A program made the translations under genes and the position numbers. Below, piece by piece: positions 7,501 to 52,011 of a stretch of 64,000 bases of DNA (its first letter is position 1; each line of letters begins with the position of its first letter). The stretch lies in IMG/VR virus record IMGVR_UViG_3300018494_000099, one strand, 5' to 3'. The notes under the pieces were generated by a model. The model made no database searches and was not told where the DNA came from. It worked only from the letters and a program-made list of their open reading frames with translations. The stretch is from an uncultured virus (IMG/VR IMGVR_UViG_3300018494_000099). Taxonomy: Duplodnaviria > Heunggongvirae > Uroviricota > Caudoviricetes.

Positions 7501-8043
7501 TTAATTATTTATAGTATTAAGTTTAGTCACTACTTTAGCAATAGCTTTCTGATAGCCTTCCTCATCGCCAGTGATTTCAGTATACGGAATATTTAATCTC
7601 TGATACAGTTCCTTAATTTCTGTGCTCAGAGCATCACTTTCTTCGGCCGTCTGATTACGACCCTTAGGATTATAAGGCTTAACTCTATTTATAAAGAAGT
7701 TAATATTATCATAAGAATTATATACAGCCATAGCCAACGCAGTAAGTGGTTCTTTAATCTTTTCATCTTTAGTATAAATAATAGTAAGCGGAAGCGGACT
7801 GTCTGTAACAATAACATCTACTTCATTTCTACATCTAGCAAGTCTGTAGGACTGCTTACCAAAGATATACTCCTGACAATTTAGGGCAGTAATATTATGC
7901 TCCCAAGTCTTATCCTTTGCAAACTCGCCGACAAGCTCACAGTTAATACCAAGTAGCTTAAGCTCACTAAAAATTTTTGCTGCACCAGTGCTCTTACCAG
8001 CTCCCGGTGCTCCGGTCAAATTAACAACAATAGGTTTATTCAT
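7501..8043 (-). CDS. P-loop kinase/ATPase (NadR/Ttd14 AAA-like)
   Basis: Walker A GAPGAGKST, EFAK, VIVTDSP, GRNQT. Confidence 0.75.
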   Translation of the reverse strand: MNKPIVVNLTGAPGAGKSTGAAKIFSELKLLGINCELVGEFAKDKTWEHNITALNCQEYIFGKQSYRLARCRNEVDVIVTDSPLPLTIIYTKDEKIKEPLTALAMAVYNSYDNINFFINRVKPYNPKGRNQTAEESDALSTEIKELYQRLNIPYTEITGDEEGYQKAIAKVVTKLNTINN

Positions 8044-9813: not shown

Positions 9814-10272
9814 TTAGCTATTCTCCTCCTTCATCTTTGCACCACAATTAAAACAATAGTAAGCTCCGTCATAATGCGGAAGATCTGTTTCCTTGCCACA
9901 TGCTGTGCACTTCCAACGATGATTATCCACTCTGATCCACTTACCAGTTCTGGAAGTAATATCAGGAACCTGCTCCCGCGGCAGCTGAGTATAAGAAACA
10001 AGTTCATCAATAAGTTCCTTTAAACTCTCTACTGTATTACATCCGTCATAGTCTACTCCGATAGCCCAGATCAAGTGACGACGGTTATTCAGGTCAGCGA
10101 CTTCTTTCTTAAGCTCATCTATATCTGCTTCTATTTCCTCTAGGTCTGCAAGCACGTCCTCGACAGTATAAACTCCAGCATAAAAATCTTCTCCGTCATG
10201 CTGATAAGCAGGCTCTTTGGCGAGCTTATTAAGTATCTCATTAACGTCATTTACTCTATAGTACTTTTCCAT
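9814..10272 (-). CDS. protein with C-terminal zinc ribbon
   Basis: GKWI...KCTACG...YCFNCGAKM. Confidence 0.65.
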   Translation of the reverse strand: MEKYYRVNDVNEILNKLAKEPAYQHDGEDFYAGVYTVEDVLADLEEIEADIDELKKEVADLNNRRHLIWAIGVDYDGCNTVESLKELIDELVSYTQLPREQVPDITSRTGKWIRVDNHRWKCTACGKETDLPHYDGAYYCFNCGAKMKEENS

Positions 10273-10697
10273 ACTCTATCTCCTCAAGCAACTCTGCTTT
10301 AATAGCAACACTGCGATATTTCTTACCCCAGTAGTAAAACAATATATCCTCAACATCTTCTTTCTTGAGCCGGCTATCAAATATAATATCTAACTTAGTA
10401 TTATCATCTGCCGGGCCATCGTAGTCATTTCTACCTCGGTATCCAGTAATTCTCCAAACGTTAGCTTTCACTAATCAATCTCCTCCACGCCATCTGTATT
10501 CGCCAGTTTTAGGGTCATATTCAAAAGCAGGTTCTTGATAATCCATACTATCAAAATAGAGCATATTAAATACCCATTTCTCATTTGCAGGATACTCGGT
10601 ATACTTAACTCCCCACTTATCTGCCCAGGCTTTAAGTTCTTCATACATGTTCATTTAAAGTATCCTCCAATAAATCTTCTTTATAATATAATACAAT

Positions 10698-10728
10698 AAG
10701 AGATAGCTTAAAATTAAGCTATCTCTTA
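10698..10728 (-). terminator. intrinsic terminator-like hairpin
   Basis: AAGAGATAGCTTAA-AA-TTAAGCTATCTCTT perfect inverted repeat between genes. Confidence 0.75.
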
Positions 10729-11300
10729 AGATTTATAATTTACTTTTCACAAGGATTTTCTACTTTAAGCTGCGTAGCAAGTCTCCTGATAATATCATAA
10801 GCACTTTCAGCACGAGCAAGTTTCTCAGCGTCTTGGGCATCTTGGACTGCTTTATAAGCACCCATCAAAAATCCTTTAATAATAGCTTCTTCGCCTCTGG
10901 TCATACTATACCTCCTTATAATGAATCCTCTGTCATTTGTTCTAGTGCTTCTTCTACTGCTTCTTTAAAAGTAATATCCGGATTCTTAGTTTCCGGCACA
11001 TTCTGATATTCAGTATAAAGCTCTGACTCATAAACGTTTTCTACTACTTCACCTGTCTTTGCCATCTTAACAATATAAGTAAATTCCTTAAAGATAAATC
11101 CGCTCTTCTTTGTGGATACTCCTGTAACCTCACAAGGAACACAAAACTTCTGTAGCTTTCTTTTATTAAACTCTGGCAGAATAACAAGTAGTTTATATAC
11201 CTTATCTCCTACCTTATACTTTGGTGTCTTGCCACTTCTATAAGTAGCTGATGCATCAAACCAACCCATATTTAACTATCTCCTTAGTAATATTATTAAT

Positions 11301-11702
11301 TTAATCTTCCTGATATAGTTCCATAGAACAGTCTACAGCTGAATGTTCACAAAGCAGGGCGGATTCAATAGTAAAGTCAGTAACAACATTAACTCCATTA
11401 TTATGAACTACATTTCCATACCCAGCTAAAGTAAATCCAAAATTACGTTCTGCGACTTTTATTGCTTTAATGTGTGCTGGCGAAAATACTTCAGCATCTA
11501 TAGTAACTACTCTACCATCTTCAAGGCGGGCAGTTCCCACCCCGATAAGTTCGTCAGCCTCATCCTTTATAGGCAAGGTTTTAGCTAAGCAAAGCTCTTT
11601 AAAAGCAGGCTCATTAAAAGCTTTCTCAAGAACCTCTTGAGAGTAGATTCTGCCATTCCGAGTACCTTTTTCCGGATACGCATATTTTATAGTAACTCTC
11701 AT
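11301..11702 (-). CDS. hypothetical protein with prohead-protease-like N-terminal motif
   Basis: TRNGRIYSQEVLEKA resembles the N-terminal NxNGRxY motif of T4 gp21-type proteases; catalytic His/Ser motifs not evident. Confidence 0.35.
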   Translation of the reverse strand: MRVTIKYAYPEKGTRNGRIYSQEVLEKAFNEPAFKELCLAKTLPIKDEADELIGVGTARLEDGRVVTIDAEVFSPAHIKAIKVAERNFGFTLAGYGNVVHNNGVNVVTDFTIESALLCEHSAVDCSMELYQED

Positions 11703-11712
11703 ATACTACTCC

Positions 11713-12528
11713 TTAAAAGTTAGTTATAATAACTTCTTTGCCTTTTCTATTATCACCATTTCTATTAATACTCCGGCGAACGTCTACTTCAGTAAAGTTA
11801 AAGCCTCTATATAGATCTCTGATGAGCTCAGTATCATGGTTAGTGAGCATACAGTAAACTCCGTAGTCAGAAAGCTCCTTGTAGAAGTCAGAAAGCCTTA
11901 CATGATCCTCGTAGGCAAAACCTTCTTTAGTATAATCGACAAAAGAAGTAGGGGTTAAGGGAGCGTAAGGGCTGTCAATAAAAATAAAATCTTTCGGGGC
12001 TATACTTTTATCAGATTGTTCAAAGTCACCGCAAAGAAACCTTACATTCTGAATCTGCTTCGATACCTCTCTAAGGTGTTCCGCGTGAAACGATTGTCCA
12101 GTAAGTTTGCCATTAAAAGGAACGTTAAACTCTCCCTTACTATTAACTCTATAAAGACCGTTGAAACAGTGCTTATTCAAGTAGATAAATCTCGCTGCCT
12201 GTATAGGAATATCATTACCTAGATTTGAATTATAATTATCTCTGACACGGTAATAATAGCCTTTTGGGTCATCACTGTTTTCGTACCAAGAATCCAGTAT
12301 AGACAAATCTTCAATAACTTCTTCTACATTATCTCTAACCTGAAGATACATATTAATAAGCTCAGGATTAATATCATTAACTACTGCTTCTTCTGGACAT
12401 AGATCAAGTAGTACTGCTCCGCCTCCTAAGAAAGGCTCAAAGTATTTATTATATGAAGAAGGCATAAGTTCTTTAATCTTTTGAAGTAGCTGGGTTTTGC
12501 CTCCCGTCCATTTAATTATTGGTTTCAT
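11713..12528 (-). CDS. dam: Dam-family DNA adenine methyltransferase
   Basis: KWTGGK, EPFLGGGAV, NDIN, FNGLYRVN..G.FNVP, DSPY (DPPY variant), EVIITNF. Confidence 0.92.
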   Translation of the reverse strand: MKPIIKWTGGKTQLLQKIKELMPSSYNKYFEPFLGGGAVLLDLCPEEAVVNDINPELINMYLQVRDNVEEVIEDLSILDSWYENSDDPKGYYYRVRDNYNSNLGNDIPIQAARFIYLNKHCFNGLYRVNSKGEFNVPFNGKLTGQSFHAEHLREVSKQIQNVRFLCGDFEQSDKSIAPKDFIFIDSPYAPLTPTSFVDYTKEGFAYEDHVRLSDFYKELSDYGVYCMLTNHDTELIRDLYRGFNFTEVDVRRSINRNGDNRKGKEVIITNF

Positions 12529-13794
12529 TATTTCTTTCTCCTCTTTCTTTTAAGTCTAGTAATCCAAGTAGTAATAGGCTGGATAATAAATAGTATAGTC
12601 AGAGGACTAAGAACACAGCTTAGGCCAACACCAACCCAGTCACTTGCTCTTACTGGAGTGCCTTCATCGATACAAATGATAATCAAGGTGGCTAAGGTAT
12701 TAATCAGAAGCCAAGTAAGTATTATTACAGTAACTAACATTTCTGCTTCCTTTCTGCTCTCAATTCTTTCATTCTTGTTTTAGCTTCTTCCTCTGTATTA
12801 AAACCATCTTCTATAATAGTAGAATTAAAGGAAGGTTGCCAGTGCCAGCAATACAAGGGATCTCCAGTCTTAAGCTCTTCTCCGTATATATAATAACTCG
12901 CTACCTTAAGAGGCTTTCCTTTCTGGCCCCAGTATTCCATGATAGCCCACTTAGTTTCATAGGGGCCAGGATAGTAAGCAAGTACCTTATCAGCTCTCTG
13001 TATCTTCTGCTCTAGCGTCATATCAAAGCTCCTCCAGCTCTTGCTTTAAGGTCTTAACCTTTTCTCTACAGTAGGTCTCAATAAGCTTTGCAAGCTCCCG
13101 GTCAGTTATAACAATACCGGTAGAAGTACTACCTTCATGCTGGATACAGGGTTTCTTTTTAAAGAGCTTATATCGCTGATAAGGATAAGACATTATATAA
13201 GAGATTAACTGGTAGTCGCCTATCTGATCTTCAAGTTCTTTTGCTCTCTCTAAAATTTCTTTCTTCATTACATCTCCTCCAGTTCTTTAAGTAGTGCATC
13301 AATCTTAGGCTGCACGACAGCAACCAATTCATCTTCTATATTAATTCCAGAAGTCTGTACTATTTCTTCTGTTGTACGTAAACTCTTAAGTTCATCTATA
13401 AGAGCTTCATAACATTCTATTCTATTTAATAATAGAGAAATCTCTACTGCTTTCTTTCTTGTCATTCTTCTACTTCCACAGTAAGTTCTATAAGCTTCTT
13501 CTCTACATCGAGGTCTGCAATAAGTTCATCTACATCACTATAGACATTACCGAAGAAACAAAGGTCTCCGAAGCTATTAGTAAAATGCTTCCATACCCAG
13601 TTCCTCAGAAGCTCCTGATAAGGGTACTTCAGGAAGTTATAAGTCTTAAAACTTACTTTCGCCTCAGGAATAAAGGGAACTTTCTTATGTTCAAGGTGTG
13701 CTCTCCACTCTTCGAGTACAAGGTCCTGAGCAAGTCGCAAGGTATCATCACTATTAGTCAACTCAGTATATACAGCAAGAAAAGTATACTTCAT
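12528..13794 (-). other. five small hypothetical genes, the first a membrane protein
   Basis: Abutting ORFs 12528-12740, 12734-13021, 13023-13268, 13268-13465, 13462-13794. Confidence 0.75.
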
Positions 13795-13907
13795 AATATA
13801 TCCTCCGTAAATTTCTATAATATATAATACGATCTTTTCTAAGGAAATTTAATCAAATAAAAAGAAAAAGATTCCCAGTAGTTAAACTAAGAATCTTATA
13901 GTCTTTA

Positions 13908-14432
13908 TTAGATTGTGGTCTTCATATCAAGCAGCTTCTGTTTAAGAGCATCTAGGTCTCTATTAACTATTCGCATTTCTTTAGCATCAAAACGCGCAGA
14001 CAACTTACTCGTAAATTCTGAGAAGAGCGTATTTAACTCGTCTTTAGCAAATACTTTTGTAAACTTACTAAAATTACCAGTAGCGATTCTTTGTAGGTTA
14101 TCTAGAACTGTGGGATTAGTTATACCCTCAGCTTCAAGCGACGCAAGTAAATTTTTTGCTATACGAGAACGAAGTCTAATCCAATCTGAAGTAATAGTAC
14201 CATCTGCATTTCTATACCTAACTGGACGCCTATTTGCCTGGAAGTCGGTATTAGCTTTGACCCAAGCATATAGCTCATCCCTGTTAGTAAGGTCATAAGC
14301 CTTTCTACCGAAGGTTCTTGTGACAGGTTCTGAAGCTTCCTCAGCAGCTACCTCAGCTACAGAATCTTCAGTAGCAGGAACTTCGTCTTCCCACATGTCT
14401 TCGTATAGTTTAAACTCTTCATGTAACTTCAT
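13908..14432 (-). CDS. acidic-leader hypothetical protein (candidate virion-packaged protein)
   Basis: AAGGAG RBS; N-terminus MKLHEEFKLYEDMWEDE; probably co-transcribed from the GCTAAATTA motif at 15228. Confidence 0.7.
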   Translation of the reverse strand: MKLHEEFKLYEDMWEDEVPATEDSVAEVAAEEASEPVTRTFGRKAYDLTNRDELYAWVKANTDFQANRRPVRYRNADGTITSDWIRLRSRIAKNLLASLEAEGITNPTVLDNLQRIATGNFSKFTKVFAKDELNTLFSEFTSKLSARFDAKEMRIVNRDLDALKQKLLDMKTTI

Positions 14433-14455
14433 ATTTATATACTCCTTATTAAAAA

Positions 14456-15196
14456 TTATATACACTTTGATTTATCTGTAATATCGCCGGTCTTAAGAAG
14501 AATATCAAGTAGTGCTTCATAATCTTTTATGTAACCCCTTGAAATAATCTTCTCGCCATTATCCTCTACAGAAAGAACATAATCCCATTTTTCATAGGAT
14601 TTAAAGTTTCTCATTTCTGTTGTAGTTACTTCCAGTCTACGCTCCAGGCCCTGCTTATCGACCCAATAAGTCCTTAGCAAAGTAGGAGTAATTTTTCTAT
14701 CATGGTCCTGAGCAGGCAAAGGATTCACTGTTCTTAAATGACTATCTAACTTAACAAATTCATCTTCCCAGCTTTCTACAACACCAAACATTGTTTTTAC
14801 TTTGGGTCTTTTCTTTGTACTGCTCTTAGTAGTGGCGGAGGATGTAGTAGATGCAGTCGAAGTACTATAGCCAGCACTTACTTTATTTCCTTTTACAGCT
14901 ACCCATTCATTTATTCTATTAAGTTCTTCATACCAGTCCTCGAAGGTAGGCTTCTCAATAGACTCAAAGACAGGTCTTACTACATAACCAGCATCAGTAA
15001 GTGTCTGCTCCCAAGCATCCTCATACTTCTGTCTTATTTCTGCATAATGCTTTTCTTTGGGCAACCACTTATTGCCTTTATCTGCTTCTATCTTGCTAAG
15101 CTCTGCTTCCATACTCTGATCAAGCTCTTGCTTACACTTAATCAATTCTGGAGTAAGCTCTCCATCTATTGCGCATTGTTCAAAAATATCGTTCAT
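14456..15196 (-). CDS. hypothetical protein with Ser/Thr linker (candidate virion-packaged protein)
   Basis: 246 aa ORF, RBS GAGAGG, upstream GCTAAATTA motif. Confidence 0.75.
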   Translation of the reverse strand: MNDIFEQCAIDGELTPELIKCKQELDQSMEAELSKIEADKGNKWLPKEKHYAEIRQKYEDAWEQTLTDAGYVVRPVFESIEKPTFEDWYEELNRINEWVAVKGNKVSAGYSTSTASTTSSATTKSSTKKRPKVKTMFGVVESWEDEFVKLDSHLRTVNPLPAQDHDRKITPTLLRTYWVDKQGLERRLEVTTTEMRNFKSYEKWDYVLSVEDNGEKIISRGYIKDYEALLDILLKTGDITDKSKCI

Positions 15197-31245: not shown

Positions 31246-33723
31246 CAGCCAGTGAAGCCGGAAACTTTGTATTGAGCAACTCCGTTGTGCTCTCTTAAGT
31301 CTGTAATCTTTCCGCCGATAGCAGAAGAAGTGTTACCAAAACCTCCGCCTCCGAAGAAAGAAGAGAACATATCGGTGAACTTAATCTGCACCTGAGTACC
31401 TTTCTTAAACTTAAAGCTCATCTCAGATCTCCTTAGGTATAAGCGTTAATCCAGTGGGTAATGCGCTTTTTCATCTCTTTCTCAAAGATACGAGCTTCCT
31501 CAAGAGAAGAGAAACCATACTGAAACGTTACGCAGTCAGTGTGAAAAGTGTCTACATTCGGATACATCTCCTGAATAAACTCTCTGAACTTATCCCAAAG
31601 ATCTTCGTCCTGAGAAAGTCCGTAAAGAGTGTCCTGCATATTCTGAGCCCACTCAATCTGCCATCCAAGGTATTCGTTATGTACTATCATCTTAAGCCTC
31701 CTCGATTTCAAGATTTGCGAGATCGTAGATTTCCATACTTTCGTTCATAGCATCGAAGAAACATTTCTTCATTGCTCTCAGGTCATCAGGGGTAAGCTTA
31801 GCAGAGAAAGAAATTCTGTACCACTTTGCTTCCTCAAGAGGAAGAACCTCAAACTCAGACTCTCCAGAACTCTCTGTATCGCATTTTGTCTCGGGGCCCT
31901 GTAAAGTATCCGCCTCAGTATCCAAAGCAAGCTGTGCGCGAAATTCTGACTCCGTGGCGAGTCCTGCAAAAACAGACTCAGGAAATACTTCGTCCTCCAT
32001 ATCATTTACATAATAATGCGGTTTGTTGTTATAAGCTTTAGCAATACCTGTAATCTTTGCAACAGTCCCTGCTCTCCACGCAAGTCCGCAAGTAGGATTA
32101 GTGAACTTACTTTTGAATCTTATGTAGTCTCCTACGTTGTACTTATACTGAATGATGCTCATTATATTCTTCCTCCGTAACTTCATAAATTTCATAATCT
32201 GCGGGATTAAATACTGAGAGTACAGGAAACTCACAACCTTTTTCAGGAACATACTCAAAATAGCTGCAGTATCCGTTTCTAGCAACCATCTTAAAGAAAC
32301 GTTTAGTCATATCTCATCGTCCTCCTCAACTTCAATTTCAAGGTCTTCAGAGTCTTCAAACCAATCTTCGAGCTGACTGTCATAGTAGCGATTGGTAACT
32401 ACATAAGAGCTATCTTCTGTGTCAATCCACCACTCTCCCATACATCTAGGAAAAGTCTGAATAAGATCATTGACTTCGTCGATAGTCTTACACTCAGAAA
32501 TTGCTGCCCAGCAGTCATTGATATGATTAAATACTTTCATCTTTCGTAATCCTCCAAGTTTCGTTTACAAATATATTATACCCCATAATTACTACGTAGA
32601 TATTATATATTTGTAAACGAATTGTGAATATGTAAAATTATTTAAAATTCTTCCACACAACATCATTGATGTCGTCGTTATCTTCCGGCATATAAACTAC
32701 CTCAAAGTACTTATAGACATTTTCAGACTTAAGCGCCACAGCGCCTACCATAGCGTCTTCTTTAGTCTTATAGGCACAGATAGGATACAGGTCATCTTTC
32801 TTCTTACCTGCGTTAAGAATATAAGGAAAGCTTTCAGTCTTCTTCATCTTCTGTGTCCTCCACATAAATCTCATTTGCTTTAAGCATTTCTGCTACGTCG
32901 TCTTCGCTCATCCATTTGAGCGCGCACTCTGCAAGAGTCTTATAGTCAATAAGACCTTCGTCTGCGAGCTCAAGAGCTCTGCAAGTTGTTTTACGAACTT
33001 CTGCGAACTCGGGTCTTTTAATTATGTTCCAGCCAAAAGAACTATCTGTCATATTATTCTTCCTCCTCATCAAAATCGATATAGTCTTCAAGGTCTTCTT
33101 TACAGGTTACTGGCCGTGGTGTCGCAGTCGTTCCTGCACTATAATCATAGAGATAGTAATCGTTGTAAGCTTCTTCACTTTCCCAGATTGCCGCGAGTAT
33201 GTGCATAGCAACATTAAAGCTACTGTCATCGATCTTACTCTTTGCAAAATCAATGAGCACATCTTCTGTAGTAAGGTCGTCTACGTTCTCATAAGCCCAC
33301 TCGAGAAGCTCATCAAGTGTCATAGCTTCAAACTCTTCTCTCGTCATTGTCGGCATCATAACTAAGTTCCTCCTTAATATTGAGTAGTAGCCCTTAGGCC
33401 ACTACTCTTCTCTTAGGTCTATACCACATACCATTGATAACAGCGTCGTGGCAAAGCTTATCAACTGCTTCTTTAGTTTCGCAGGCTTCAAGGTTTTCTG
33501 TAAAACGTCTCTTTGCGTCTGCCTCAATAAAAGCAGGCATAATCATTACTTTGACCATACGGATCATTTCTTCAGTAGACACGCTCGGCTCATTAAGCAT
33601 AAGCTTAATATTATTGCAGTTCTCTCTGAGCTCTTTCGAATAGCAACCTTTAACTTTAGTAAGGTTCATAACAATTTCCTCTTTCGTATAATATGTATTT
33701 TTTTGTAAGTCTGTTTCCTCCGA

Positions 33724-33821
33724 CTTACATTTATATTATAACATGTTTTCGCCCATTTGTAAACTGACGAAATAGACAAAGTTTCGGAAATTTATAAACG
33801 AAATCCTGTCTATTTCGCCAG
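33724..33821 (-). promoter_or_regulatory. repeated promoter module (copy 2) with 15-bp inverted repeat
   Basis: -35 at 33758-33763, -10 at 33735-33740; CTGACGAAATAGACA (33764-33778) and TGTCTATTTCGCCAG (33807-33821). Confidence 0.8.
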
Positions 33822-42448: not shown

Positions 42449-42795
42449 TATGTATTCCTCCTAAATTACTGTTCAGAAATAGTGATATAAAGTTCGTTAG
42501 TTATGTCCGCGAAGTCGTAATCAATCTCGAAGTACTCTTCAGCTTCAGAGCCATATACTCGGGTACGAGACTTGTTGTACTCAAGCTCTTCAGGGTCGTC
42601 AGACTGAACAACCTCGTCATAGCAAACATCCTTACACTCTACAAGACCTTTGAGAGCGTCAGACTTAGAAGTATAAACTCCATGAACTCCGCAAAAAGCC
42701 TTAGAGTTTCCATCATCGTCCTGTCCAGCAGAGCCCCAACAAACAATATAAAGTTTTTCCATATTCTTTTCCTCCGAAATATGTATTGTGTTTTT

Positions 42796-45960: not shown

Positions 45961-48161
45961 TCGCAACCACACTCATGACAATCTAGGTGAACATAGCGGT
46001 CTCTAATCTCTGCGGTTCTTCCTTGATTAAAGTTTTGTGCAGAAATATAGCCACAGACTCTACGCGCAATATTCATACGGTCTCTATCTGTATTTCCACA
46101 GTTAGGGCACTTCCAGATAAGCTTACCAGATTCATCTTCTTCGATAAGAATTTCTCGATCCCAGCCGCACTCATGACAGTAATCTGACTTAGTATTAATC
46201 TCAGCGTACATGATATGATCGTAGATATACTGGATAATAGTCAGAGCCGCTTCGAGATTATTCTCAAGATTAGCACTTTCGATGTAGCTGATTGCACCGC
46301 CTTTAGAAAGTCTCTGGAACTTAGCTTCTACCTCAAGCTTCTTAAACGGATCAATAGGAGTTTCTACATGAACATGATAACTGTTGGTGACATAGTTGCG
46401 ATCCGAAACTCCGGGGATTTCGCCCCAGCGCTTCTGCAAGCATCTAGCGAACTTATAAGTAGTACTCTCGAGAGGGGTACCGTAGATTCCGAATCCAAGA
46501 TTAAGTTCTTCATTCCACTCATCACACTTCTCATTCATATGTCTGAGGATCTCTAGTCCGAGTTCCTGACCTTCCTCAGAAAGCAGGTCCTTACCGGTCA
46601 GTTCTTTAACGCATTCCCAAAGTCCGGCATATCCGAGTGAGATAGTAGAGTATCCACCAGTAAGAAGCTTATCAATTGTCTCACCTTTCTTAAGTCGAGC
46701 GATAGCACCATGCTGCCAGAGTACTGGAGCAACATCACTGATAGTACCTTTGAGTCTTTCATAGCGGCAAAGCAAGGCTTTATGACAGAGTTCAAGTACT
46801 TCATCAAATGTCTTCCAGAAGCTATCCATGTCTTTAGAATAGTTTTCGCCGGTTGCCGAGCAAGCTACATCTACTAAGTTAACAGTAACTACTCCCTTAT
46901 TAAATCTACCCCAATACTTTGCTTTTCCATTCTCGTCATACCAAGGAGACAGGCAGCTTCTACAACCCATAGGTGCGAAGCAGGAACCTTCCTTAAGTTC
47001 CTTCATGATCTTCTCACTAATATAGTCAGGAACAAGTCGCTTAGCTGAGCATTTAGCAGCAAGCTTCGTAAGATACCAGTAGTCAGTTCCCTCTCGTATG
47101 TTATCTTCTTCTAGAACATAGATGAGTTTCGGGAAAGCCGGTGTGATCCAAACACCTTTCTCATTCTTAACTCCCTCATATCTCTGAAGAAGAACTTCCT
47201 CGATGATCATCGCCAGGTCTTTTTTAGTCTGCTCGTCTTCTACTTCGTTGAGGTACATAAACACGGTAATGAAAGGTGCCTGGCCATTAGTAGTGAGTAG
47301 GGTATTGACCTGATACTGGATCGTCTGTACTCCACGCTTTACTTCTGCGCGAACTCGCTTTTCTGTAATGTCAGCTGCCAACAGAGTTCGGCTATACTGA
47401 TCCAAAGATTTAAGCTCTTCTTCAACCTCAGCTCTGATCTTCTTACGGCTAATGTCTACAAAAGGTGCCAGGTGGGAGAGGGTGATTGACTGACCACCAT
47501 ACTGATTACTACTTACCTGCGCAACTATCTGTGTAGCTACATTACACGCAGTAGAAAAACTATGTGGCTTCTCAATAAGAGTACCGCTGATTACAGTACC
47601 GTTCTGAAGCATGTCATCTAGGGCAACTAGATCGCAGTTATGTAGTCTCTGCGCGAAGTAGTCCATGTCATGGAAATGAATTGTACCTTCGTCATGTGCC
47701 TTCACTACATCTTTAGGTAGAAGAAGTCTGCGTGTAAGGTCCTTAGATACTTCTCCTGCCATGTAGTCTCTCTGTGTAGAGTTAATTACCGGATTCTTAT
47801 TTGCATTCTCCTGCTTAAGTTCCTCATTGCTAAGATTAATTAAGCTGAGAATCGAATCATCGGTAGTATTAGATTTTCTTACTAACTCTTTATTATGTCT
47901 GTATTTAATAAATGCGCGAACGAGATTGTTATAATTTCGGAAGATAAGTTCGTCTTCAATTAGGTCGTTAATATCTTCGACCTTTATTGCGCGCTTATAT
48001 ACACTACACTTCTCTTCTACGATATCTGCAAGCTGATCAATCTTTCTTCTGCTGATCTGCTTTGATTTAATGACTTCCTGATTAGCATGTGAAATTGCTT
48101 CGATAATCTTCATCTTATCGAACTCAACTTCTCTGCCATCACGCTTAATAACTCTTTGCAT
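45957..48161 (-). CDS. nrdD: class III anaerobic ribonucleoside-triphosphate reductase
   Basis: N-terminal ATP cone (VIKRDG), HFHDMDY, MGCRS, TNSYHV, CPNCG, glycyl loop RVCGY. Confidence 0.96.
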   Translation of the reverse strand: MQRVIKRDGREVEFDKMKIIEAISHANQEVIKSKQISRRKIDQLADIVEEKCSVYKRAIKVEDINDLIEDELIFRNYNNLVRAFIKYRHNKELVRKSNTTDDSILSLINLSNEELKQENANKNPVINSTQRDYMAGEVSKDLTRRLLLPKDVVKAHDEGTIHFHDMDYFAQRLHNCDLVALDDMLQNGTVISGTLIEKPHSFSTACNVATQIVAQVSSNQYGGQSITLSHLAPFVDISRKKIRAEVEEELKSLDQYSRTLLAADITEKRVRAEVKRGVQTIQYQVNTLLTTNGQAPFITVFMYLNEVEDEQTKKDLAMIIEEVLLQRYEGVKNEKGVWITPAFPKLIYVLEEDNIREGTDYWYLTKLAAKCSAKRLVPDYISEKIMKELKEGSCFAPMGCRSCLSPWYDENGKAKYWGRFNKGVVTVNLVDVACSATGENYSKDMDSFWKTFDEVLELCHKALLCRYERLKGTISDVAPVLWQHGAIARLKKGETIDKLLTGGYSTISLGYAGLWECVKELTGKDLLSEEGQELGLEILRHMNEKCDEWNEELNLGFGIYGTPLESTTYKFARCLQKRWGEIPGVSDRNYVTNSYHVHVETPIDPFKKLEVEAKFQRLSKGGAISYIESANLENNLEAALTIIQYIYDHIMYAEINTKSDYCHECGWDREILIEEDESGKLIWKCPNCGNTDRDRMNIARRVCGYISAQNFNQGRTAEIRDRYVHLDCHECGCE

Positions 48162-48247
48162 AACTAATACCTTTCCTCAATTTTTATGTCTAAGAGCCTT
48201 CTGCTCTGTAATTAATTTAGCTGATTCTAAGGCTAATTTCTGCCTAT

Positions 48248-48322
48248 AAAAGGAGTGGGACGACGAGTTTTACCTCATCGCCCCCGATGCCAATGACACA
48301 TCATCTACTCGCACTCACCCTA
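48248..48322 (-). ncRNA. candidate structured leader/attenuator or sRNA upstream of nrdD
   Basis: Promoter motif at 48327-48336, GC-rich foldable segment, 11-bp hairpin 48257-48284 and U-tract. Confidence 0.45.
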
Positions 48323-48546
48323 CTATATTATACGATATTAAGCGTGTATTTTTTGATGATATGAAAAATAAATTCCCAAGCCGTCAGCATACAAATAATA
48401 CTTTTCTGAACTATTCGTTTCTGTCACTATAAAGTTTTTATATTTAAAATCCTTAAAATAAATGGCTCCAACGGGTTTTTTGTTTATATCAAGCAGTTCG
48501 ATTATCGGTGGATTATCAGATTCAGCCAAAGCATGAAATAAACTGG

Positions 48547-48930
48547 TTAGTGGGTGTTCCATATATCTCGTGTACCTCCTAAAAAAGAAAACCAAAAATG
48601 TCCGTGACCAAGATACTCATCGTATTCATCTAACATTCGCTTTAGAGTATCCAAGTCCCTCTCGTAGAAAGCTATAACATCTTGGAGTTGGGAGTAAGCA
48701 AGGAGTTTAGTAAAGTCCGTCGACCCGGTCGACACTTCTTTACAGTAAGTTTTAAAAAGATTAGCTGCTGCTTTCGTTAACATCTTAATAACTAACTTAG
48801 TGGATCTATAATCCTTCCAATAACTTATAAAATCATGCCAGGTAGTGATTAACTGAAATTGGATCAATTTCCCTTCTTCTGCATACTCTAATATTTTTAA
48901 TAAAAGTTCTTGTGCTTCTTTATCTTGCAT
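48547..48930 (-). CDS. hypothetical protein
   Basis: 127 aa ORF with AAGGA RBS. Confidence 0.7.
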   Translation of the reverse strand: MQDKEAQELLLKILEYAEEGKLIQFQLITTWHDFISYWKDYRSTKLVIKMLTKAAANLFKTYCKEVSTGSTDFTKLLAYSQLQDVIAFYERDLDTLKRMLDEYDEYLGHGHFWFSFLGGTRDIWNTH

Positions 48931-48956
48931 TTTTAGCTATTCCTTATAATAATTAA

Positions 48957-49034
48957 AATAAAAGCGCTGGACGGGAGGAAACATCCAGCGCAACGAACAA
49001 AGGAGGAAACTTGTATAAGAGTTTTCTCTTATAT
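48957..49034 (-). ncRNA. candidate sRNA with two anti-Shine-Dalgarno (GUUUCCUCC) motifs
   Basis: Promoter motif 49038-49047; 5' hairpin 49014-49033; terminator hairpin 48964-48991 with U-tract. Confidence 0.55.
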
Positions 49035-49093
49035 TATATTATACGATAAATAATTTGAAATTTCTCAAATTGTCTCAATAATTTTTATGCAAA

Positions 49094-49630
49094 TTAATTA
49101 TACCAACCAAACAGCACGTTAAAGATGCTGTCAGCAAGCTTAGAAACATCTGCTGCAGGCTGGGCCTTAGCATTAGAGTTTACCTGGCTGCTGATAGTAG
49201 TCTCAAAGTCGCCATCCCTAAGAGTCATGTGATAATTCTCATACTTTGCCTGAAAAGCCTTGAGAGCTTCATCGAAAGCAGCCTCTGCATCAGCGAGCTT
49301 GTTAGCAATGTCTTTCTTGCCAAGCTCATAAGCTTTCTTAAGATTCTCAAGAGCTTCAGCATATTCCTTAGTAAGCTGAGTAAGATCTTCCTTATAAACC
49401 TTACGTGCAGCATTGAGTGACTTAAAAGCATCTTCTACTTTCTTAGCATCAGCTTTCTTCTGAGCAGCTGCATCTTCCTTAGCCTTTCGTGCTTCACAGT
49501 ACTCGGCTTCGGCAGCAGTGAGCTCTTCAATAGAATCAAAAGGTTTCTGAAGTACTCTCGAGTAGTAAGAATAGGTCTGCTCGCCACTTTTTTCAATAGT
49601 TACGTTGTTCTTTTTCATTTTAAATACCAA
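49094..49630 (-). CDS. Ala/Lys/Glu-rich coiled-coil protein
   Basis: Long heptad-like helical region; strongly biased codon usage. Confidence 0.75.
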   Translation of the reverse strand: MVFKMKKNNVTIEKSGEQTYSYYSRVLQKPFDSIEELTAAEAEYCEARKAKEDAAAQKKADAKKVEDAFKSLNAARKVYKEDLTQLTKEYAEALENLKKAYELGKKDIANKLADAEAAFDEALKAFQAKYENYHMTLRDGDFETTISSQVNSNAKAQPAADVSKLADSIFNVLFGWYN

Positions 49631-49705
49631 TCCTTTTTGTTATTTTTTATATTAAGCCGGACAGCAGTCCTCTCAACTATCCGACTTTATATTATACGAT
49701 AAAAA

Positions 49706-50614
49706 TTAATTAAATCCGCATTCTATGCAAATTCCGGTTTCAATATCAAAGGTTTCTTTTCCACACTCGGGACAGAACTTTAGGTGAGAATCTGAAACTT
49801 CTGGAGTTTCGGCAGGATAACCACCATCATACTCATTACCGAGATCATGAACCTCTTCTACTTCTTCATCAAGGAAATCCCAATAATTTCCTTCTCTGAA
49901 AGTAAGAGTCTCACCTCTAGACTTTATAGCCATCTCACATCTACTACAAAGCCAACCGAGATCTACTTCCTTACGACACTCACTCTTATCAAAAAGGTCA
50001 TTACACCAGGTACACTCAACTGTATCCTCATTCTCTTCCATCTCTTCTACTAGCTGCTCGATAGTCATTCCTTCTGGAATCGGCTTTTTAGCGCACTCAG
50101 CAATCTTAAAGTCATCACCAAGTTCAGCTCTATATTCTCTGAGCTTATCAAGAAGGTTAGAGTCGTCAGCATCGTTCTCGTCTATAAACTTACGAAGGTC
50201 TGCACCTGTAATTATACCAATTTCGCGGCAGAGCTTAAAGAACTCTTCTTGATCTGCTTTATTCTTAAATGAAAATCTCGTAGGTGCAACTTCTTCTACA
50301 AGTCCGTTACTAAAGTAGAATTCATCATCATCGAACTCAGAATCATCTGTATACTTCCCAAAGTCACCTTTATTAAAAACAGATACTGCGGGTTCTGCTT
50401 CAGTTTCCTTACCTACAGCATCTTCCCAAGACCAAACTGTTCCAAGATCACAAGAGTCAGTACACTCGCCAAAATCATTTCTATTAACCTCAATTTGATT
50501 AATAACAGGCTTCTGGTTCATGCAGCCCATAGCAAATGCCTTAGCTTCGTCAAAGAAGTCGAAGGGCTCATCCTCACAGTTAGGGCACTTTACAAAATAA
50601 ATATATGTTACCAT
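49706..50614 (-). CDS. acidic multi-zinc-ribbon protein
   Basis: CPNC, CTWC/CSRC, CPECG/CIECG; TGCTAAATTAT at 50641-50651. Confidence 0.75.
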   Translation of the reverse strand: MVTYIYFVKCPNCEDEPFDFFDEAKAFAMGCMNQKPVINQIEVNRNDFGECTDSCDLGTVWSWEDAVGKETEAEPAVSVFNKGDFGKYTDDSEFDDDEFYFSNGLVEEVAPTRFSFKNKADQEEFFKLCREIGIITGADLRKFIDENDADDSNLLDKLREYRAELGDDFKIAECAKKPIPEGMTIEQLVEEMEENEDTVECTWCNDLFDKSECRKEVDLGWLCSRCEMAIKSRGETLTFREGNYWDFLDEEVEEVHDLGNEYDGGYPAETPEVSDSHLKFCPECGKETFDIETGICIECGFN

Positions 50615-50663: not shown

Positions 50664-51101
50664 TTAAATTTCGTCAAGTAACCCAGACTTTCTTAACAAC
50701 TTCTCCGATTCTGAAATTAGCGCAATCTCGTTTACTTCGCCGGCAACTAAGAAGATTTTAAGTATCCTACCTTTGTAGCAGAGTCTGATATCCCGGAAAT
50801 CTCCATTATGAAAATACTCTAATTTCGCACCGGCGAAATCCGGGCAATTACAGAAGTCAGTAATCAGGTCGAGTTCACGATCCACGAACTTACATATGTC
50901 TTCTTTGTAGTAGATGTTGTTAAGCCCTAGGTCTACCAGCTTCCCTCTCCACTGAGCAAAGCATTGATGACCCGATGGATCAGAGAGGAAGTTTAGAGTT
51001 TCCCCTCTGTACTCTATAGTATCGTATCTTATTACTAACCCGAGTTCCCTGGCTTCCTTAGAGATCTCGAAGGATTGCTCGGAGTTAGCTTCAGTCAACA
51101 T
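50664..51101 (-). CDS. hypothetical protein
   Basis: ORF overlapping the end of the HNH gene; start uncertain. Confidence 0.65.
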   Translation of the reverse strand: MLTEANSEQSFEISKEARELGLVIRYDTIEYRGETLNFLSDPSGHQCFAQWRGKLVDLGLNNIYYKEDICKFVDRELDLITDFCNCPDFAGAKLEYFHNGDFRDIRLCYKGRILKIFLVAGEVNEIALISESEKLLRKSGLLDEI

Positions 51102-52011
51102 ATTCAAACTGATAAAGATCACCTGCCCTATTCTTTACAGGACCCTTACTAATAATAGACCTATCGATCATTGGGATACTTATAGGTAATGCAAAACTAG
51201 CCTTACGCTTAGACTCAAATATCTCTCCAGTATTTAAGCACTTAACTTTTCTACCTGTGGCTGAGGTCTTTCCGTACATTGGATTAGCTGCTCCGGCTCG
51301 ACTTTGATGAGTAGCACCTAAGCGATAACCTTCAGGGGCTTCTTCTGGTAGACAATATACATCAGTGAGCCCATTAGTAAACCACTTCTTACCATTTCTA
51401 GTATTATGTGCTTTCTCTTTCATTTCGTCAGTAAACTTACAGCCTGACCTAGGATTATTAGTTCCTGATAGTTTCAAGCTCATCTTAGCTAGCTCTTCTT
51501 CTGTGTGCCTTGGTCCACCGAGACGCCAGTCAGTATTTTCTAATAAAAATGTCTCTAGCTCTTCAGGAAAGATATATTTTTTAATATTTAATTTTTCATT
51601 ATAAACAGCTTTACGTCCTCTAATGCCATTACCCGATATAGCTGGGTCTTTTCGTACGGCTTCTAAGTACAGAGTTCGAGCAAGTTCAAAGTCTTCTTCT
51701 GAAATATCAAAAGACCTTTTATTACTCCAAGAACTATTAACTTTAAATGTATTAGCCATTATATAAAATGCTTGGGCGAAAGCTGGAATTTCTGGAAAGT
51801 CTAAAGCTAATAGCTTATGTGCCTTAAAGTGTTCACCCGGAGTTAGTCTAATGATATTAGGGTGTCTATCTTTAGTACGACCCTCTCCTCCGTAGCTAGT
51901 AGGAATAATGTGATGACCTTCCCAATGAGATAGACCATCCGACCACTGTCCTCTATTGTTAATTATAGACTCAATAAAAATTATATAATCTGTATTTGTA
52001 AAATCTAGCAT
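51091..52011 (-). CDS. free-standing HNH homing endonuclease with NUMOD-type DNA-binding repeats
   Basis: EGHHIIP..GG...NII.LT..EHFKAHKLL; HTEEE..KMS, NPMYGK, VKCLNTGEIFES. Confidence 0.88.
   Translation of the reverse strand: MLDFTNTDYIIFIESIINNRGQWSDGLSHWEGHHIIPTSYGGEGRTKDRHPNIIRLTPGEHFKAHKLLALDFPEIPAFAQAFYIMANTFKVNSSWSNKRSFDISEEDFELARTLYLEAVRKDPAISGNGIRGRKAVYNEKLNIKKYIFPEELETFLLENTDWRLGGPRHTEEELAKMSLKLSGTNNPRSGCKFTDEMKEKAHNTRNGKKWFTNGLTDVYCLPEEAPEGYRLGATHQSRAGAANPMYGKTSATGRKVKCLNTGEIFESKRKASFALPISIPMIDRSIISKGPVKNRAGDLYQFEYVD

What the first reader, a model, noticed from the sequence alone, without database searches (positions are those of the whole stretch)
48957..49047. Candidate phage sRNA displaying two anti-Shine-Dalgarno motifs
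Seen: on the minus strand a promoter motif (ATCGTATAAT, 49038-49047) is followed by a perfect 8-bp hairpin, then single-stranded AAGUUUCCUCCUUUG, then a terminator hairpin containing a second GUUUCCUCC, then a U-tract, all in about 78 nt with no ORF. The complementary RBS GGAGGAAA precedes several phage genes (26221, 37461, 37879, 42768, 60177). Known: Firmicute sRNAs such as RNAIII and RsaE use exposed C-rich motifs to block RBSs. Inference: a phage translational silencer of early phage or host mRNAs.
Basis: partly seen in the sequence, partly recalled or inferred. Interest (0 to 1): 0.75.

Follow-up and report, generated by a model that had tools for sequence, protein, structure and literature searches.

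The report
Conserved jumbo-phage RNA with anti-ribosome-site loops
A giant uncultured phage and at least two dozen relatives carry a tiny folded non-coding RNA that twice displays the sequence ribosomes use to dock onto messages, so it probably covers ribosome-binding sites to damp translation, although no transcript or target has been shown.

Summary
On the window's minus strand (the coding strand of a 233-kb phage record) a perfect copy of the phage's own 16-nt promoter motif is followed by a 78-nt unit. It has a 5' hairpin, a weakly paired region showing GUUUCCUCCUUUG, a 10-bp GC-rich hairpin with UUUCCUCC in its loop, and a U tract.

I found 24 distinct variants in viral and metagenome contigs. 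The stems covary (19 of 21 pairs with double changes; 0 of 500 shuffles) while both UCCUCC motifs stay exposed. U-G pairs fix the minus strand as the RNA strand. No Rfam family, conserved ORF or cellular homologue was found.

It is therefore also a 5' leader. In a distant relative, however, the RNA and that gene pair lie about 30 kb apart, each with its own promoter, so the RNA is a separable module.

Best reading (about 0.5): a phage sRNA that pairs with GGAGG-type ribosome-binding sites. Targets are unresolved, and expression could not be tested.

The parts
49033..49048 (-). Phage promoter motif TATCGTATAATATAAT. It is a perfect copy of the phage's recurrent 16-mer and has no -35 element.
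   Evidence: There are 47 copies (at most 1 mismatch) on the coding strand, 0 on the other strand and 0 in simulations. 15 copies are exact, including this one.
48955..49032 (-). The ~78-nt RNA unit, defined as the full-length match to covariance model R1.
   Evidence: 82.2 bits, E about 2e-17. It is a single copy in the 233-kb genome.
49015..49032 (-). 5'-terminal hairpin AUAAGAG-AAAA-CUCUUAU. It starts at or within about 2 nt of the inferred transcription start.
   Evidence: Fold. Helices 1 and 2: 7 of 7 pairs have a double change in some variant, and 92-95% of cells are paired.
48992..49014 (-). Central region ACAAGUUUCCUCCUUUGUUCGUU holding anti-SD motif 1 (GUUUCCUCC at 49010-49002). It can form a weak 4-5 bp hairpin that puts UUUCCUCC in a loop.
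   Evidence: Helix 3: 77% of cells paired, and 2 of 4 pairs show C-G to G-C or A-U changes. Mean unpaired probability is 0.54 in read-through transcripts.
48964..48991 (-). 3' hairpin (terminator stem) GCGCUGGAUG / CGUCCAGCGC with anti-SD motif 2 (UUUCCUCC, 48981-48974) as its 8-nt loop.
   Evidence: Helix 4: 10 of 10 pairs have compensatory changes. The motif's mean unpaired probability is 0.97 across 18 variants.
48955..48963 (-). U tract UUUUAUUUU.
   Evidence: A U-rich tail is present in 22 of 24 variants and absent in L068 and L028.
48547..48930 (-). Downstream 127-aa gene. Its product is predicted as a three-helix protein of unknown function. It has a weak SD (AAGGA) and no promoter of its own, so it is expressed by read-through.
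   Evidence: A homologue follows the RNA in 18 of 18 short forms. No Pfam, PHROG or PDB match was found.
48338..48562 (-). The 85-aa (probably 74-aa) partner gene of the cassette. Its start overlaps the end of the 127-aa gene.
   Evidence: It is 59-71% identical in 15 loci.
49094..49618 (-). Upstream gene of about 174 aa with unknown function. It has no terminator of its own before the RNA's promoter.
   Evidence: A homologue lies directly upstream in 20 of 24 variant loci; 3 of the remaining 4 have too little upstream sequence to tell.

Best explanation
This is a gene for a ~78-nt phage small RNA. It is transcribed from the phage's own strong promoter class and folds into a 5'-terminal protective hairpin plus two presentation sites for the sequence UUCCUCC. 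One site is in a weakly closed central loop and one is in the loop of the terminator hairpin.

Because UUCCUCC is the exact complement of the phage's commonest ribosome-binding core (GGAGGA), the RNA most likely base-pairs with GGAGG-type Shine-Dalgarno sites of mRNAs and blocks 30S binding. These mRNAs could be phage, host or both. This is the mechanism of the C-rich-loop sRNAs of Gram-positive bacteria.

In most relatives a leaky terminator also lets the same promoter express a downstream two-gene cassette, so the short RNA is made by termination within that 5' leader.

Shown:
- promoter recurrence and strand
- fold and covariation
- exposure of the motifs
- separability from the cassette

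Inferred:
- that a discrete RNA accumulates
- that it pairs with ribosome-binding sites
- what it represses
For: 1. Promoter. The unit has a perfect copy of a 16-mer found 47 times on the coding strand only. The same 16-mer also precedes tRNA genes.

2. Structure. z is -6.47. Across 20 aligned variants, 90.3% of cells are paired, 19 of 21 pairs have double changes, and the covariation score is 0.445 against 0.180 for shuffles (0 of 500 reach it). Slid controls give 36-49% paired.

3. Strand. Recurrent U-G and G-U pairs (for example U-G in 10 of 20 variants at one pair) would be A.C mismatches on the other strand.

4. Motif exposure. The stems of variants differ completely, yet motif 2 always sits in the 3' hairpin loop (unpaired probability 0.97) and motif 1 lies between hairpins. 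The search pattern did not require either placement.

5. Motif-independent retrieval. Two searches that did not require CCUCC gave four distinct variants in all, and all four carry both motifs. Synteny with the upstream protein gave window-type, L003 and L004-type. Promoter plus 5' hairpin gave window-type, L003-type and L015-type.

6. Conservation. The RNA is more conserved than its flanks: 85% and 80% identity against 69-71% for the neighbouring genes.

7. Separability. In phage record G002 the RNA stands after the 174-aa homologue. It has a strong terminator, and the next gene has its own sigma-70-like promoter. The 127/85-aa cassette lies about 30 kb away behind its own promoter, with no RNA.

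8. Rarity of the motif. CCTCC is rare in phage transcripts: 26 on the coding strand against 179 GGAGG. TTCCTCC occurs 8 times in 233 kb, and 2 of the 8 are here.

9. Match to phage ribosome-binding sites. GGAGG is present in 105 of 338 called translation-initiation regions and is followed by A in 72 of 105.

10. Candidate targets. The nucleotidyltransferase gene's ribosome-binding site carries CAAAGGAGGAAAC, a 13-nt perfect match (-24.1 kcal/mol against -20.0 for the next best). Two ortholog groups score strongly against each phage's own RNA in three genomes: a GyrA/ParC-like topoisomerase subunit and an unknown 1347-aa protein (0 of 5000 permutations).
Against: - Expression. No transcript evidence exists. 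The two public runs that hold the region are contigs and cannot show ends or strand.
- Ascertainment. 20 of the 24 variants were found with a pattern that required two TCCTCC motifs. The conservation of the 6-nt core is therefore partly ascertained.
- Generic motif. The motif has no conserved specific target. The nucleotidyltransferase gene is absent from 2 of 3 related records. A hairpin with a GGAGGAAAC loop at 33704-33729 is not conserved. The comparative hits may only reflect conserved strong ribosome-binding sites, since ortholog energies correlate at 0.35-0.45.
- Self-targeting. The phage's own genes depend on GGAG-type sites (240 of 338), so a global silencer would also hit the phage.
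- Leader position. In 18 of 18 short forms the unit lies in the 5' leader of a conserved cassette, and 2 variants have no U tract. In those two a free sRNA could arise only by processing.
- Link to long forms. Model R1 does not recognise the G002-type long form significantly (E 0.11 and 0.24). The connection rests on architecture, synteny, the promoter and intermediate forms (L076 E 1.4e-7, L056 4.8e-6).
Confidence: 0.5

Rival explanations
1. It is a cis-acting 5' leader (attenuator or translational control element) of the 127-aa/85-aa cassette. On this reading the hairpin and U tract set how much transcription reaches the cassette. The CCUCC motifs act only within the same transcript, for example by masking a cassette ribosome-binding site or binding a cassette protein for autoregulation.
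For: - The cassette follows the unit within about 25-32 nt, with no promoter between, in 18 of 18 short forms.
- Two variants (L068, L028) keep the hairpin and its CCUCC loop but have no U tract, so there the unit can only be a 5' UTR.
- The cassette's first gene always has a weak SD. It has GGAGG in 0 of 18 and GGAG in 2 of 18, against 105 and 240 of 338 genome-wide. This is as expected if a strong SD would be trapped by the leader.
- The phage P1/P7 c4 RNA is a precedent for a repressor RNA encoded upstream of its targets in one operon (PMC12197685, passages read).
Against: - In G002 the RNA and the cassette are about 30 kb apart, each with its own promoter. In the long forms L004/L020, L074 and L076 the next gene has its own sigma-70-like promoter.
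- No alternative (antiterminator) pairing is apparent. The hairpin arms change completely between variants while the upstream segment stays constant.
- Predicted pairing of motif 1 with the cassette SD is inconsistent, at 0 to 5.5 expected base pairs with a mean of 1.2. Pairing of motif 2 with it is nil.
- The motif is invariant while the cis SDs vary (AAGGA, UAGGA, CAGGA, CGGGA, GAGGU), so there is no covariation.
- The 85-aa gene has GGAGG in only 3 of 15.
Confidence: 0.2
2. It is a decoy or mimic rather than an antisense regulator. On this reading the two UUCCUCC displays imitate the CCUCC core of the 16S rRNA 3' tail, or they form a pyrimidine-rich protein-binding site. They would titrate a protein or nuclease that acts on that tail, or act as a sponge for another RNA that carries GGAGG.
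For: - There are two (in L061 three) repeated displays of one short motif in loops. Repeated loop motifs are typical of sponge RNAs; that comparison is recalled, for example CsrB-type sponges and ToxI-type RNA antitoxins.
- Motif 1 (CCUCCUUU) extends the identity with the 16S tail core beyond CCUCC. The 16S sequence is recalled and was not tested, because the host is unknown.
- No specific conserved mRNA target was found.
Against: - There is no candidate binding partner. The flanking proteins have no recognisable RNA-binding or nuclease fold.
- The bases directly 5' of CCUCC are U-rich in the variants. They match the phage's GGAGGA(A) sites better than they would a strict copy of the rRNA tail. 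One of these U's was forced by the search pattern.
Confidence: 0.15
3. It is ordinary intergenic punctuation. On this reading a promoter for the downstream genes and a terminator for the upstream gene happen to lie together, and the CCUCC strings occur by chance.
For: - Promoter and terminator pairs are common between genes of this phage.
- The upstream gene has no other terminator.
Against: - The order here is promoter then terminator, the reverse of the usual terminator-then-promoter junctions of this genome.
- This order is kept in 24 variants, with covarying stems and fixed loop content.
- The motif is rare on the coding strand.
- The unit is more conserved than the flanking genes.
Confidence: 0.04
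4. The plus strand is the functional one. On this reading AAAGGAGG serves as the ribosome-binding site of a 12-codon TTG peptide at 49011, or the plus-strand RNA carries SD-like stabiliser elements.
For: AAAGGAGGAAAC followed by TTG is present on the plus strand.
Against: - Only 11 of 21 variants have a start codon 4-12 nt after that GGAGG. The peptides are 1-27 aa and unrelated.
- All neighbouring genes, the promoter motif and the U tract are on the minus strand.
- U-G pairs would be A.C mismatches on the plus strand.
Confidence: 0.01

Closest known systems
csRNAs (CiaRH-dependent small RNAs) of Streptococcus
   Same: Both are short sRNAs with two stem-loops, the 3' one being the terminator, flanking an unpaired stretch. 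A conserved CCUCCU motif is proposed to block ribosome binding (review PMC4438229, passages read).
   Different: - csRNAs are chromosomal, are driven by a CiaR-dependent promoter, and pair an anti-SD with an anti-start-codon.
- This unit is phage-encoded and uses a phage promoter.
- The short forms here have no anti-AUG at a suitable spacing.
- This unit shows a second copy of the motif in the terminator loop.
- There is no Rfam hit.
C-rich-loop sRNAs of Gram-positive bacteria: RsaE/RoxS, the hairpin loops of S. aureus RNAIII, and 6C of Actinobacteria
   Same: Exposed C-rich loop motifs pair with G-rich ribosome-binding sites of many mRNAs without Hfq. For 6C I saw the title and abstract start of PMC6486639 in a search listing. 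RsaE/RoxS and RNAIII are recalled.
   Different: - Those motifs are UCCC or CCCC runs that match a subset of targets, and the RNAs are host-encoded and stress-regulated.
- Here the motif is the full complement of the consensus SD core, is duplicated, and is carried by a virulent-type jumbo phage.
- No Rfam match to any of them was found.
c4 antisense RNA of phages P1 and P7
   Same: It is a phage-encoded RNA (about 77 nt, size recalled) whose loop sequences pair around a ribosome-binding site. It is encoded upstream of its target genes in the same operon (PMC12197685, passages read; operon arrangement recalled).
   Different: - c4 has gene-specific complementarity to two sites of its own operon and is released by processing.
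- Here the downstream cassette has no matching pair of sites.
- The motif here is generic, and the unit has its own terminator.
- No Rfam match was found.
Anti-SD small RNAs noted earlier in this scan in other uncultured phages (e1-5960991, e1-5832697)
   Same: Each is a promoter-to-terminator unit of a large phage with CCUCC exposed in a loop, conserved in relatives (AI notes).
   Different: - They are in different genomes, and no sequence similarity was found.
- Those units have one display. This one has two and doubles as a cassette leader.
- They are unverified notes, not independent evidence.

Membership tests
Generic trans-acting base-pairing sRNA gene | Own promoter | tested here: met
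   The unit has a perfect copy of the phage 16-mer. This motif occurs 47 times on the coding strand and 0 times on the other strand.
Generic trans-acting base-pairing sRNA gene | Intrinsic terminator that gives a discrete short product | tested here: inconclusive
   A hairpin plus U tract is present here and in 22 of 24 variants. Many short forms have interrupted U tracts, 2 have none, and read-through must occur to express the cassette.
Generic trans-acting base-pairing sRNA gene | No conserved ORF; conserved structure with covariation | tested here: met
   (no conserved ORF); 19 of 21 pairs have double changes, and 0 of 500 shuffles reach the observed score.
Generic trans-acting base-pairing sRNA gene | Discrete transcript detected | not testable with these tools
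   Only Logan contigs of two runs hold parts of the region, and these carry no end or strand information.
Generic trans-acting base-pairing sRNA gene | Demonstrated target pairing | not testable with these tools
   Only predictions are available. No target with extended complementarity is conserved.
csRNA (Streptococcus, CiaRH regulon) | CiaR-type direct-repeat promoter, anti-SD plus anti-start-codon, and a match to the family model | tested here: not met
   The upstream DNA is the phage 16-mer with no such repeat. There is no CAU at a suitable distance in the short forms. No Rfam hit was found at E up to 10.
RsaE/RoxS, 6C | Match to the Rfam covariance model | tested here: not met
   cmscan of 48000-50000 at E up to 10 lists neither family. 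The only overlapping row is a plus-strand sub-threshold L31 leader hit (24.1 bits against a 33-bit threshold).
c4 antisense RNA (P1/P7) | Two loop sequences complementary to two sites at a ribosome-binding site in the same operon, and a match to the family model | tested here: not met
   No Rfam hit was found. The cassette SDs are weak and variable, predicted leader-SD pairing is inconsistent, and the 85-aa gene has GGAGG in 3 of 15.
Transcription attenuator or riboswitch-type leader | Lies between a promoter and the regulated gene | tested here: met
   This holds in 18 of 18 short forms. It does not hold in the long forms or in G002.
Transcription attenuator or riboswitch-type leader | Alternative antiterminator structure or ligand-binding aptamer | tested here: not met
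   The hairpin arms vary freely while the upstream segments stay constant. The 3' hairpin forms, with its loop 0.97 unpaired, in ensemble folds of all 18 leaders. No Rfam cis-regulatory family matches.
STAB-SD-type 5' mRNA stabiliser (recalled) | An SD-like GGAGG on the transcribed strand of a 5' UTR | tested here: not met
   The transcribed (minus) strand carries CCUCC, not GGAGG.

The most novel reading that the evidence does not exclude
The RNA is a phage-made mimic of the ribosome's own mRNA-docking tail. Expressed from a top-strength promoter on a replicating jumbo genome, it would compete with 30S subunits for Shine-Dalgarno sites across the cell, or decoy a factor that recognises the 16S tail. 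Either way it would re-programme translation initiation globally during infection instead of regulating one or a few genes. The co-transcribed weak-SD cassette would be built to escape it.
Probability: 0.15. Interest if true: 0.85.

Novelty: new variant of a known kind. Interest (0 to 1): 0.6.

Why it matters
Small RNAs of virulent phages, and especially of phages of Gram-positive-type hosts, are almost uncharted. Six full-text searches and passages of a 2025 review of phage sRNAs (PMC12197685) turned up no phage sRNA that displays the anti-Shine-Dalgarno sequence.

This is a well-supported new RNA family with 24 variants and strong covariation. It sits in jumbo phages that also carry a GOLLD RNA and a tRNA cluster.

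If it does occlude ribosome-binding sites, it would be an RNA-only way for a phage to tune or seize translation initiation. It would also be a compact, portable anti-RBS module for synthetic biology. Together with similar units noted elsewhere in this scan, it suggests that anti-SD sRNAs may be a recurrent phage strategy.

Tried and rejected
1. Expression data. One search found 2 runs, both held as contigs. When laid, they cover parts of the stretch at 90-99% identity but cannot show ends, strand or level. One 485-nt contig of run X1 spans 48950-49160. Its 8 differences all lie at 49091-49118 and none lie in the RNA. The 178 nt from 48772 to 48949 are replaced by 176 unlike letters. I draw no conclusion on transcription from this.

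2. Known families. Rfam gave nothing. The INPHARED phage collection gave no DNA match.

3. Cellular homologues. 80 loci were listed and scanned with R1. None is a member: the best E is 0.03 and the 3' hairpin is missing.

4. False positives of the pattern scans. 37 of 61 distinct sequences lack the architecture. Examples are L019/L025, which is an opposite-strand coding region with ribosome-binding sites, and L022. L094 and L095 from the motif-free pattern are unrelated.

5. Function of the flanking proteins.
   - Pfam and PHROGs gave nothing for the 127-aa and 85-aa proteins, and only a weak unknown-function PHROG hit (phrog_9415, E 0.0027) for the upstream protein.
   - A PDB profile search gave nothing below E 0.49.
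   - The AlphaFold model of the 127-aa protein (pLDDT 88.7) is a three-helix bundle. Foldseek found 0 PDB matches at E of 0.001 or better.
   - The protein atlas gave no named relatives.

6. Specific targets.
   - The nucleotidyltransferase ribosome-binding site has a 13-nt match, but the gene is found in only 1 of 3 related records.
   - A 5' hairpin with a GGAGGAAAC loop at 33704-33729 has 9-nt loop-loop complementarity, but the loop is GAGAA in G003 and the hairpin is absent in G002.

7. Cis models.
   - Leader-SD pairing is inconsistent. Two start codons were mis-assigned by that script.
   - The 85-aa gene SD is not consistently GGAGG.

8. Terminator strength. Stand-alone forms tend to have longer U runs than cassette-linked forms, but the difference is not significant (Mann-Whitney p = 0.14).

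9. Plus-strand peptide. Rejected.

10. Second copies. None was found in the phage's own genome or in G001 or G003.
Full report
**Setting**

The window is the reverse strand of bases 74,870-138,869 of a 233,329-bp virus record that CheckV rates as 100% complete. Nearly all ORFs lie on the window's minus strand.

The neighbourhood is a replication and nucleotide-metabolism module. It holds NrdD/NrdG, helicases, a ligase, a methyltransferase, a NadR-like enzyme with PnuC, and a homing endonuclease.

The finding lies in the 163-nt gap between a ~174-aa gene (49094-49618) and a 127-aa gene (48547-48930), both on the minus strand and both of unknown function.

**Observation**

Read on the minus strand, the gap holds, in order:
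- the promoter motif TATCGTATAATATAAT (49048-49033)
- a hairpin, AUAAGAG-AAAA-CUCUUAU
- the stretch ACAAGUUUCCUCCUUUGUUCGUU
- a 10-bp hairpin, GCGCUGGAUG-UUUCCUCC-CGUCCAGCGC
- the U tract UUUUAUUUU
- 24 nt further on, the AUG of the 127-aa gene, behind a weak SD (AAGGA)

The fold is far more stable than shuffles: -25.4 against -9.62 +/- 2.44 kcal/mol, z -6.47. The terminator scan lists the 3' hairpin. GTTTCCTCC is over-represented, and two of its three copies are here.

**The promoter is real and strand-specific**

The 16-mer TATYGTATWATATAAT, with at most one mismatch, occurs:
- 47 times on the phage's coding strand
- 0 times on the other strand
- 0 times in five simulated genomes

Of the 47 copies, 36 lie within 150 nt of a called gene start. 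Fifteen are exact, including this one and copies at 189,027 and 191,319 inside the region that holds 13 tRNA genes; a near-exact copy (1 mismatch) at 195,115 lies upstream of the GOLLD RNA.

A second promoter class also exists, of the form TTTACA-N17-TGTTATAAT.

Elsewhere in the genome the usual junction is terminator then promoter. Here the order is promoter then terminator, which by itself predicts a short product.

**A family**

Relatives found through the upstream protein carry the same architecture at the same place, with different stems. L003 is 62% identical and L004-L007 are 41% identical.

I scanned for the promoter core plus two TCCTCC motifs. This gave 14 viral and 58 metagenome loci, holding 61 distinct sequences. 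Of these, 24 distinct sequences share the architecture and 37 do not.
- Eighteen are 'short forms' like the window.
- Six are 'long forms' with an extra hairpin and a conserved UUUCAUAG. These are L020 (same as L004), L074, L076, L061, L056 and L085. L061 has three CCUCC displays.

A covariance model built on the short forms (R1) gave these results:
- It finds 20 sequences at E of 1e-5 or better.
- It finds a single copy in the phage's own genome.
- It finds one copy each in G001 and G003.
- It links some long forms (L076 at 1.4e-7, L056 at 4.8e-6, L061 at 5e-4).
- It does not link the G002 type significantly (E 0.11).

**Covariation and strand**

On the model-based alignment of 20 sequences:
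- 90.3% of cells pair, against 75.4% for shuffles.
- 19 of 21 pairs have a change on both sides.
- The covariation score is 0.445 against 0.180, and 0 of 500 shuffles reach it.
- Slid controls give 36-49% paired.
- The 3' hairpin has compensatory changes at 10 of 10 pairs and the 5' hairpin at 7 of 7.
- The weak central helix pairs in 77% of cells, with C-G to G-C or A-U changes at 2 of 4 pairs.

That alignment was fitted to the structure. An independent MAFFT and RNAalifold run still gave 5 of 6 predicted pairs with compensatory changes.

Frequent U-G and G-U pairs are compatible only with the minus-strand RNA.

The RNA is more conserved than its flanking genes: 85% and 80% identity against 69-71%.

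**Conservation of the motifs, and a caveat**

My main pattern demanded TCCTCC twice, so the invariance of that hexamer is partly ascertained. Four things were not imposed by the pattern:
- Motif 2 always falls in the loop of the 3' hairpin (mean unpaired probability 0.97), and motif 1 always falls between hairpins.
- The flanks are conserved (UUUCCUCCUUUG).
- Two retrievals that did not use the motif gave four distinct variants in all, and all four have both motifs (synteny; promoter plus 5' hairpin).
- CCTCC is scarce on the phage coding strand. There are 26 copies against 179 GGAGG. TTCCTCC occurs 8 times in 233 kb, and two of those are in this 78-nt unit.

**Relation to the neighbouring genes**

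The ~174-aa homologue lies directly upstream in 20 of 24 variant loci. Three of the other four have too little upstream sequence to tell, and L085 is the one exception.

In all 18 short forms a homologue of the 127-aa gene starts about 25-32 nt after the hairpin, with no promoter between. An 85-aa homologue follows it in 15 loci.

That gene always has a weak SD. It has GGAGG in 0 of 18, against 105 of 338 called genes genome-wide. My gene caller picks starts by SD strength, which inflates the genome-wide figure.

Two short forms (L068, L028) keep the hairpin and its CCUCC loop but have no U tract. In these phages the unit is therefore also the cassette's 5' leader, and the terminator must be leaky.

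The module is separable, however. In G002 (221 kb) the RNA sits after the 174-aa homologue, ends in a strong U tract, and is followed by a sigma-70-like promoter and an unrelated small gene. The 127/85-aa cassette lies about 30 kb away, directly behind its own terminator and 16-mer promoter, with no RNA element.

The 127-aa protein is predicted with confidence (pLDDT 88.7) as three long helices. It has no informative relatives.

**How it probably works**

UUCCUCC is the exact complement of the phage's preferred ribosome-binding core. GGAGG is followed by A in 72 of 105 cases, against a 42% A background in spacers.

The combination of two exposed copies, a 5'-terminal hairpin and a terminator hairpin is the design of C-rich-loop sRNAs that occlude ribosome-binding sites. 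A 5'-terminal hairpin is a known protection against 5' exonucleolytic decay in Bacillota (recalled).

I therefore favour a base-pairing anti-SD sRNA, at about 0.5.

**Targets remain open**

In the phage's own genome the best site is the ribosome-binding site of a nucleotidyltransferase gene. It carries CAAAGGAGGAAAC, 13 nt perfectly complementary, at -24.1 kcal/mol against -20.0 for the next best. Its G001 ortholog keeps GGAGGAAAC, but G002 and G003 lack the gene.

The only other GGAGGAAAC on the coding strand is the 10-nt loop of a 5'-terminal hairpin at 33704-33729. That loop is not conserved.

I ran a three-genome comparison in which each phage's genes were scored against its own RNA (123 ortholog triples). 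It singles out a GyrA/ParC-like topoisomerase subunit and an unknown 1347-aa protein. Their summed z scores are -7.6 and -7.2, against -4.1 for the next. None of 5000 permutations matched this, and both remain top after regressing out SD strength. These are leads only, because orthologous SD strengths are themselves correlated.

**Rivals**

*Purely cis-acting leader (0.2).* This fits the tight linkage and the weak cassette SD. Against it:
- the G002 arrangement
- the lack of any alternative structure
- inconsistent predicted leader-SD pairing (mean 1.2 expected base pairs)
- no covariation between the invariant motif and the variable cis SDs
- GGAGG in only 3 of 15 SDs of the 85-aa gene

*Decoy or mimic of the 16S tail, or a protein sponge (0.15).* This is not excluded, but it has no candidate partner.

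*Chance punctuation (0.04) and a plus-strand peptide (0.01).* Both are disfavoured.

**Comparison with known systems**

The closest by architecture and proposed mechanism are the streptococcal csRNAs (PMC4438229, passages read). Next are RsaE/RoxS, RNAIII and 6C (6C from a search listing; the others recalled).

The closest phage precedent is the c4 RNA of P1/P7 (PMC12197685, passages read).

The unit is a member of none of these. There is no Rfam match, the promoter differs, the short forms have no anti-start-codon, and the operon has no matching cis sites.

Six literature searches and the 2025 review passages gave no phage sRNA with an anti-SD display. Earlier AI notes of this scan describe similar units in other uncultured phages, but these are unverified.

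**Verdict**

This is a real, conserved, previously uncatalogued phage RNA family. The mechanism is plausible but untested. The unit's second role as a cassette leader is an important qualification.

I classify it as a new variant of a known kind and score its interest at 0.6.

Noticed in passing
window 33704-33729 (minus strand): A transcript from a sigma-70-like promoter (TTTACA-N17-TGTTATAAT) begins with an 8-bp hairpin. Its 10-nt loop is GGAGGAAACA, a 9-nt perfect complement of the sRNA's GUUUCCUCC. It lies about 45 nt upstream of a 91-aa gene that has its own SD. The ortholog in G003 keeps the hairpin but with a GAGAA loop, and G002 lacks the hairpin.
   Followed up: yes
window 48257-48337 (minus strand): A second promoter-to-hairpin unit lies between the 85-aa gene and nrdD. 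A near-consensus 16-mer promoter (genome 90533) is followed by a ~75-nt leader that ends in an 11-bp GC-rich hairpin (48284-48257), and nrdD starts at 48161. No Rfam match was found. It may be an nrdD leader or attenuator.
   Followed up: partly
own genome G000:C1:186500-197500 (L231), outside the window: A cluster of 13 tRNA genes by ARAGORN lies here, with further long tRNA-model hits of 130-196 nt that may hold introns. A GOLLD RNA (Rfam RF02032, 156.3 bits against a 150-bit threshold) lies at L231:8995-9508. Copies of the same 16-mer promoter as the sRNA's lie within this region.
   Followed up: partly
window 51091-52011 (minus strand): A homing endonuclease gene (PHROG 655, E 2e-21; NUMOD3 motif) is inserted in the replication module two genes upstream of the sRNA.
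   Followed up: no
own genome G000:C1: about 7,600-14,800 and about 226,100-233,300, outside the window: The last ~7.2 kb of the record repeats an internal stretch near its start, with over 95% identity in 200-nt windows at an offset of 218,493. The unique genome is therefore about 226 kb or less, and the record is not a simple linear genome.
   Followed up: partly
whole genome; window examples at 42768 and 60177: GGAGG in ribosome-binding sites is followed by A in 72 of 105 cases and by T in only 15. The usual extension toward the 16S tail would favour U (recalled). This is an unusual SD flavour that happens to match the sRNA.
   Followed up: partly
L019/L025 (contig of L003, 15072-15949): A second hit of the two-CCUCC pattern in the L003 phage is probably the opposite strand of a small gene region with two AAAGGAGG ribosome-binding sites. 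It is not an RNA of this family: R1 gave no hit at this place, only weak matches elsewhere on the contig (E about 0.8).
   Followed up: partly
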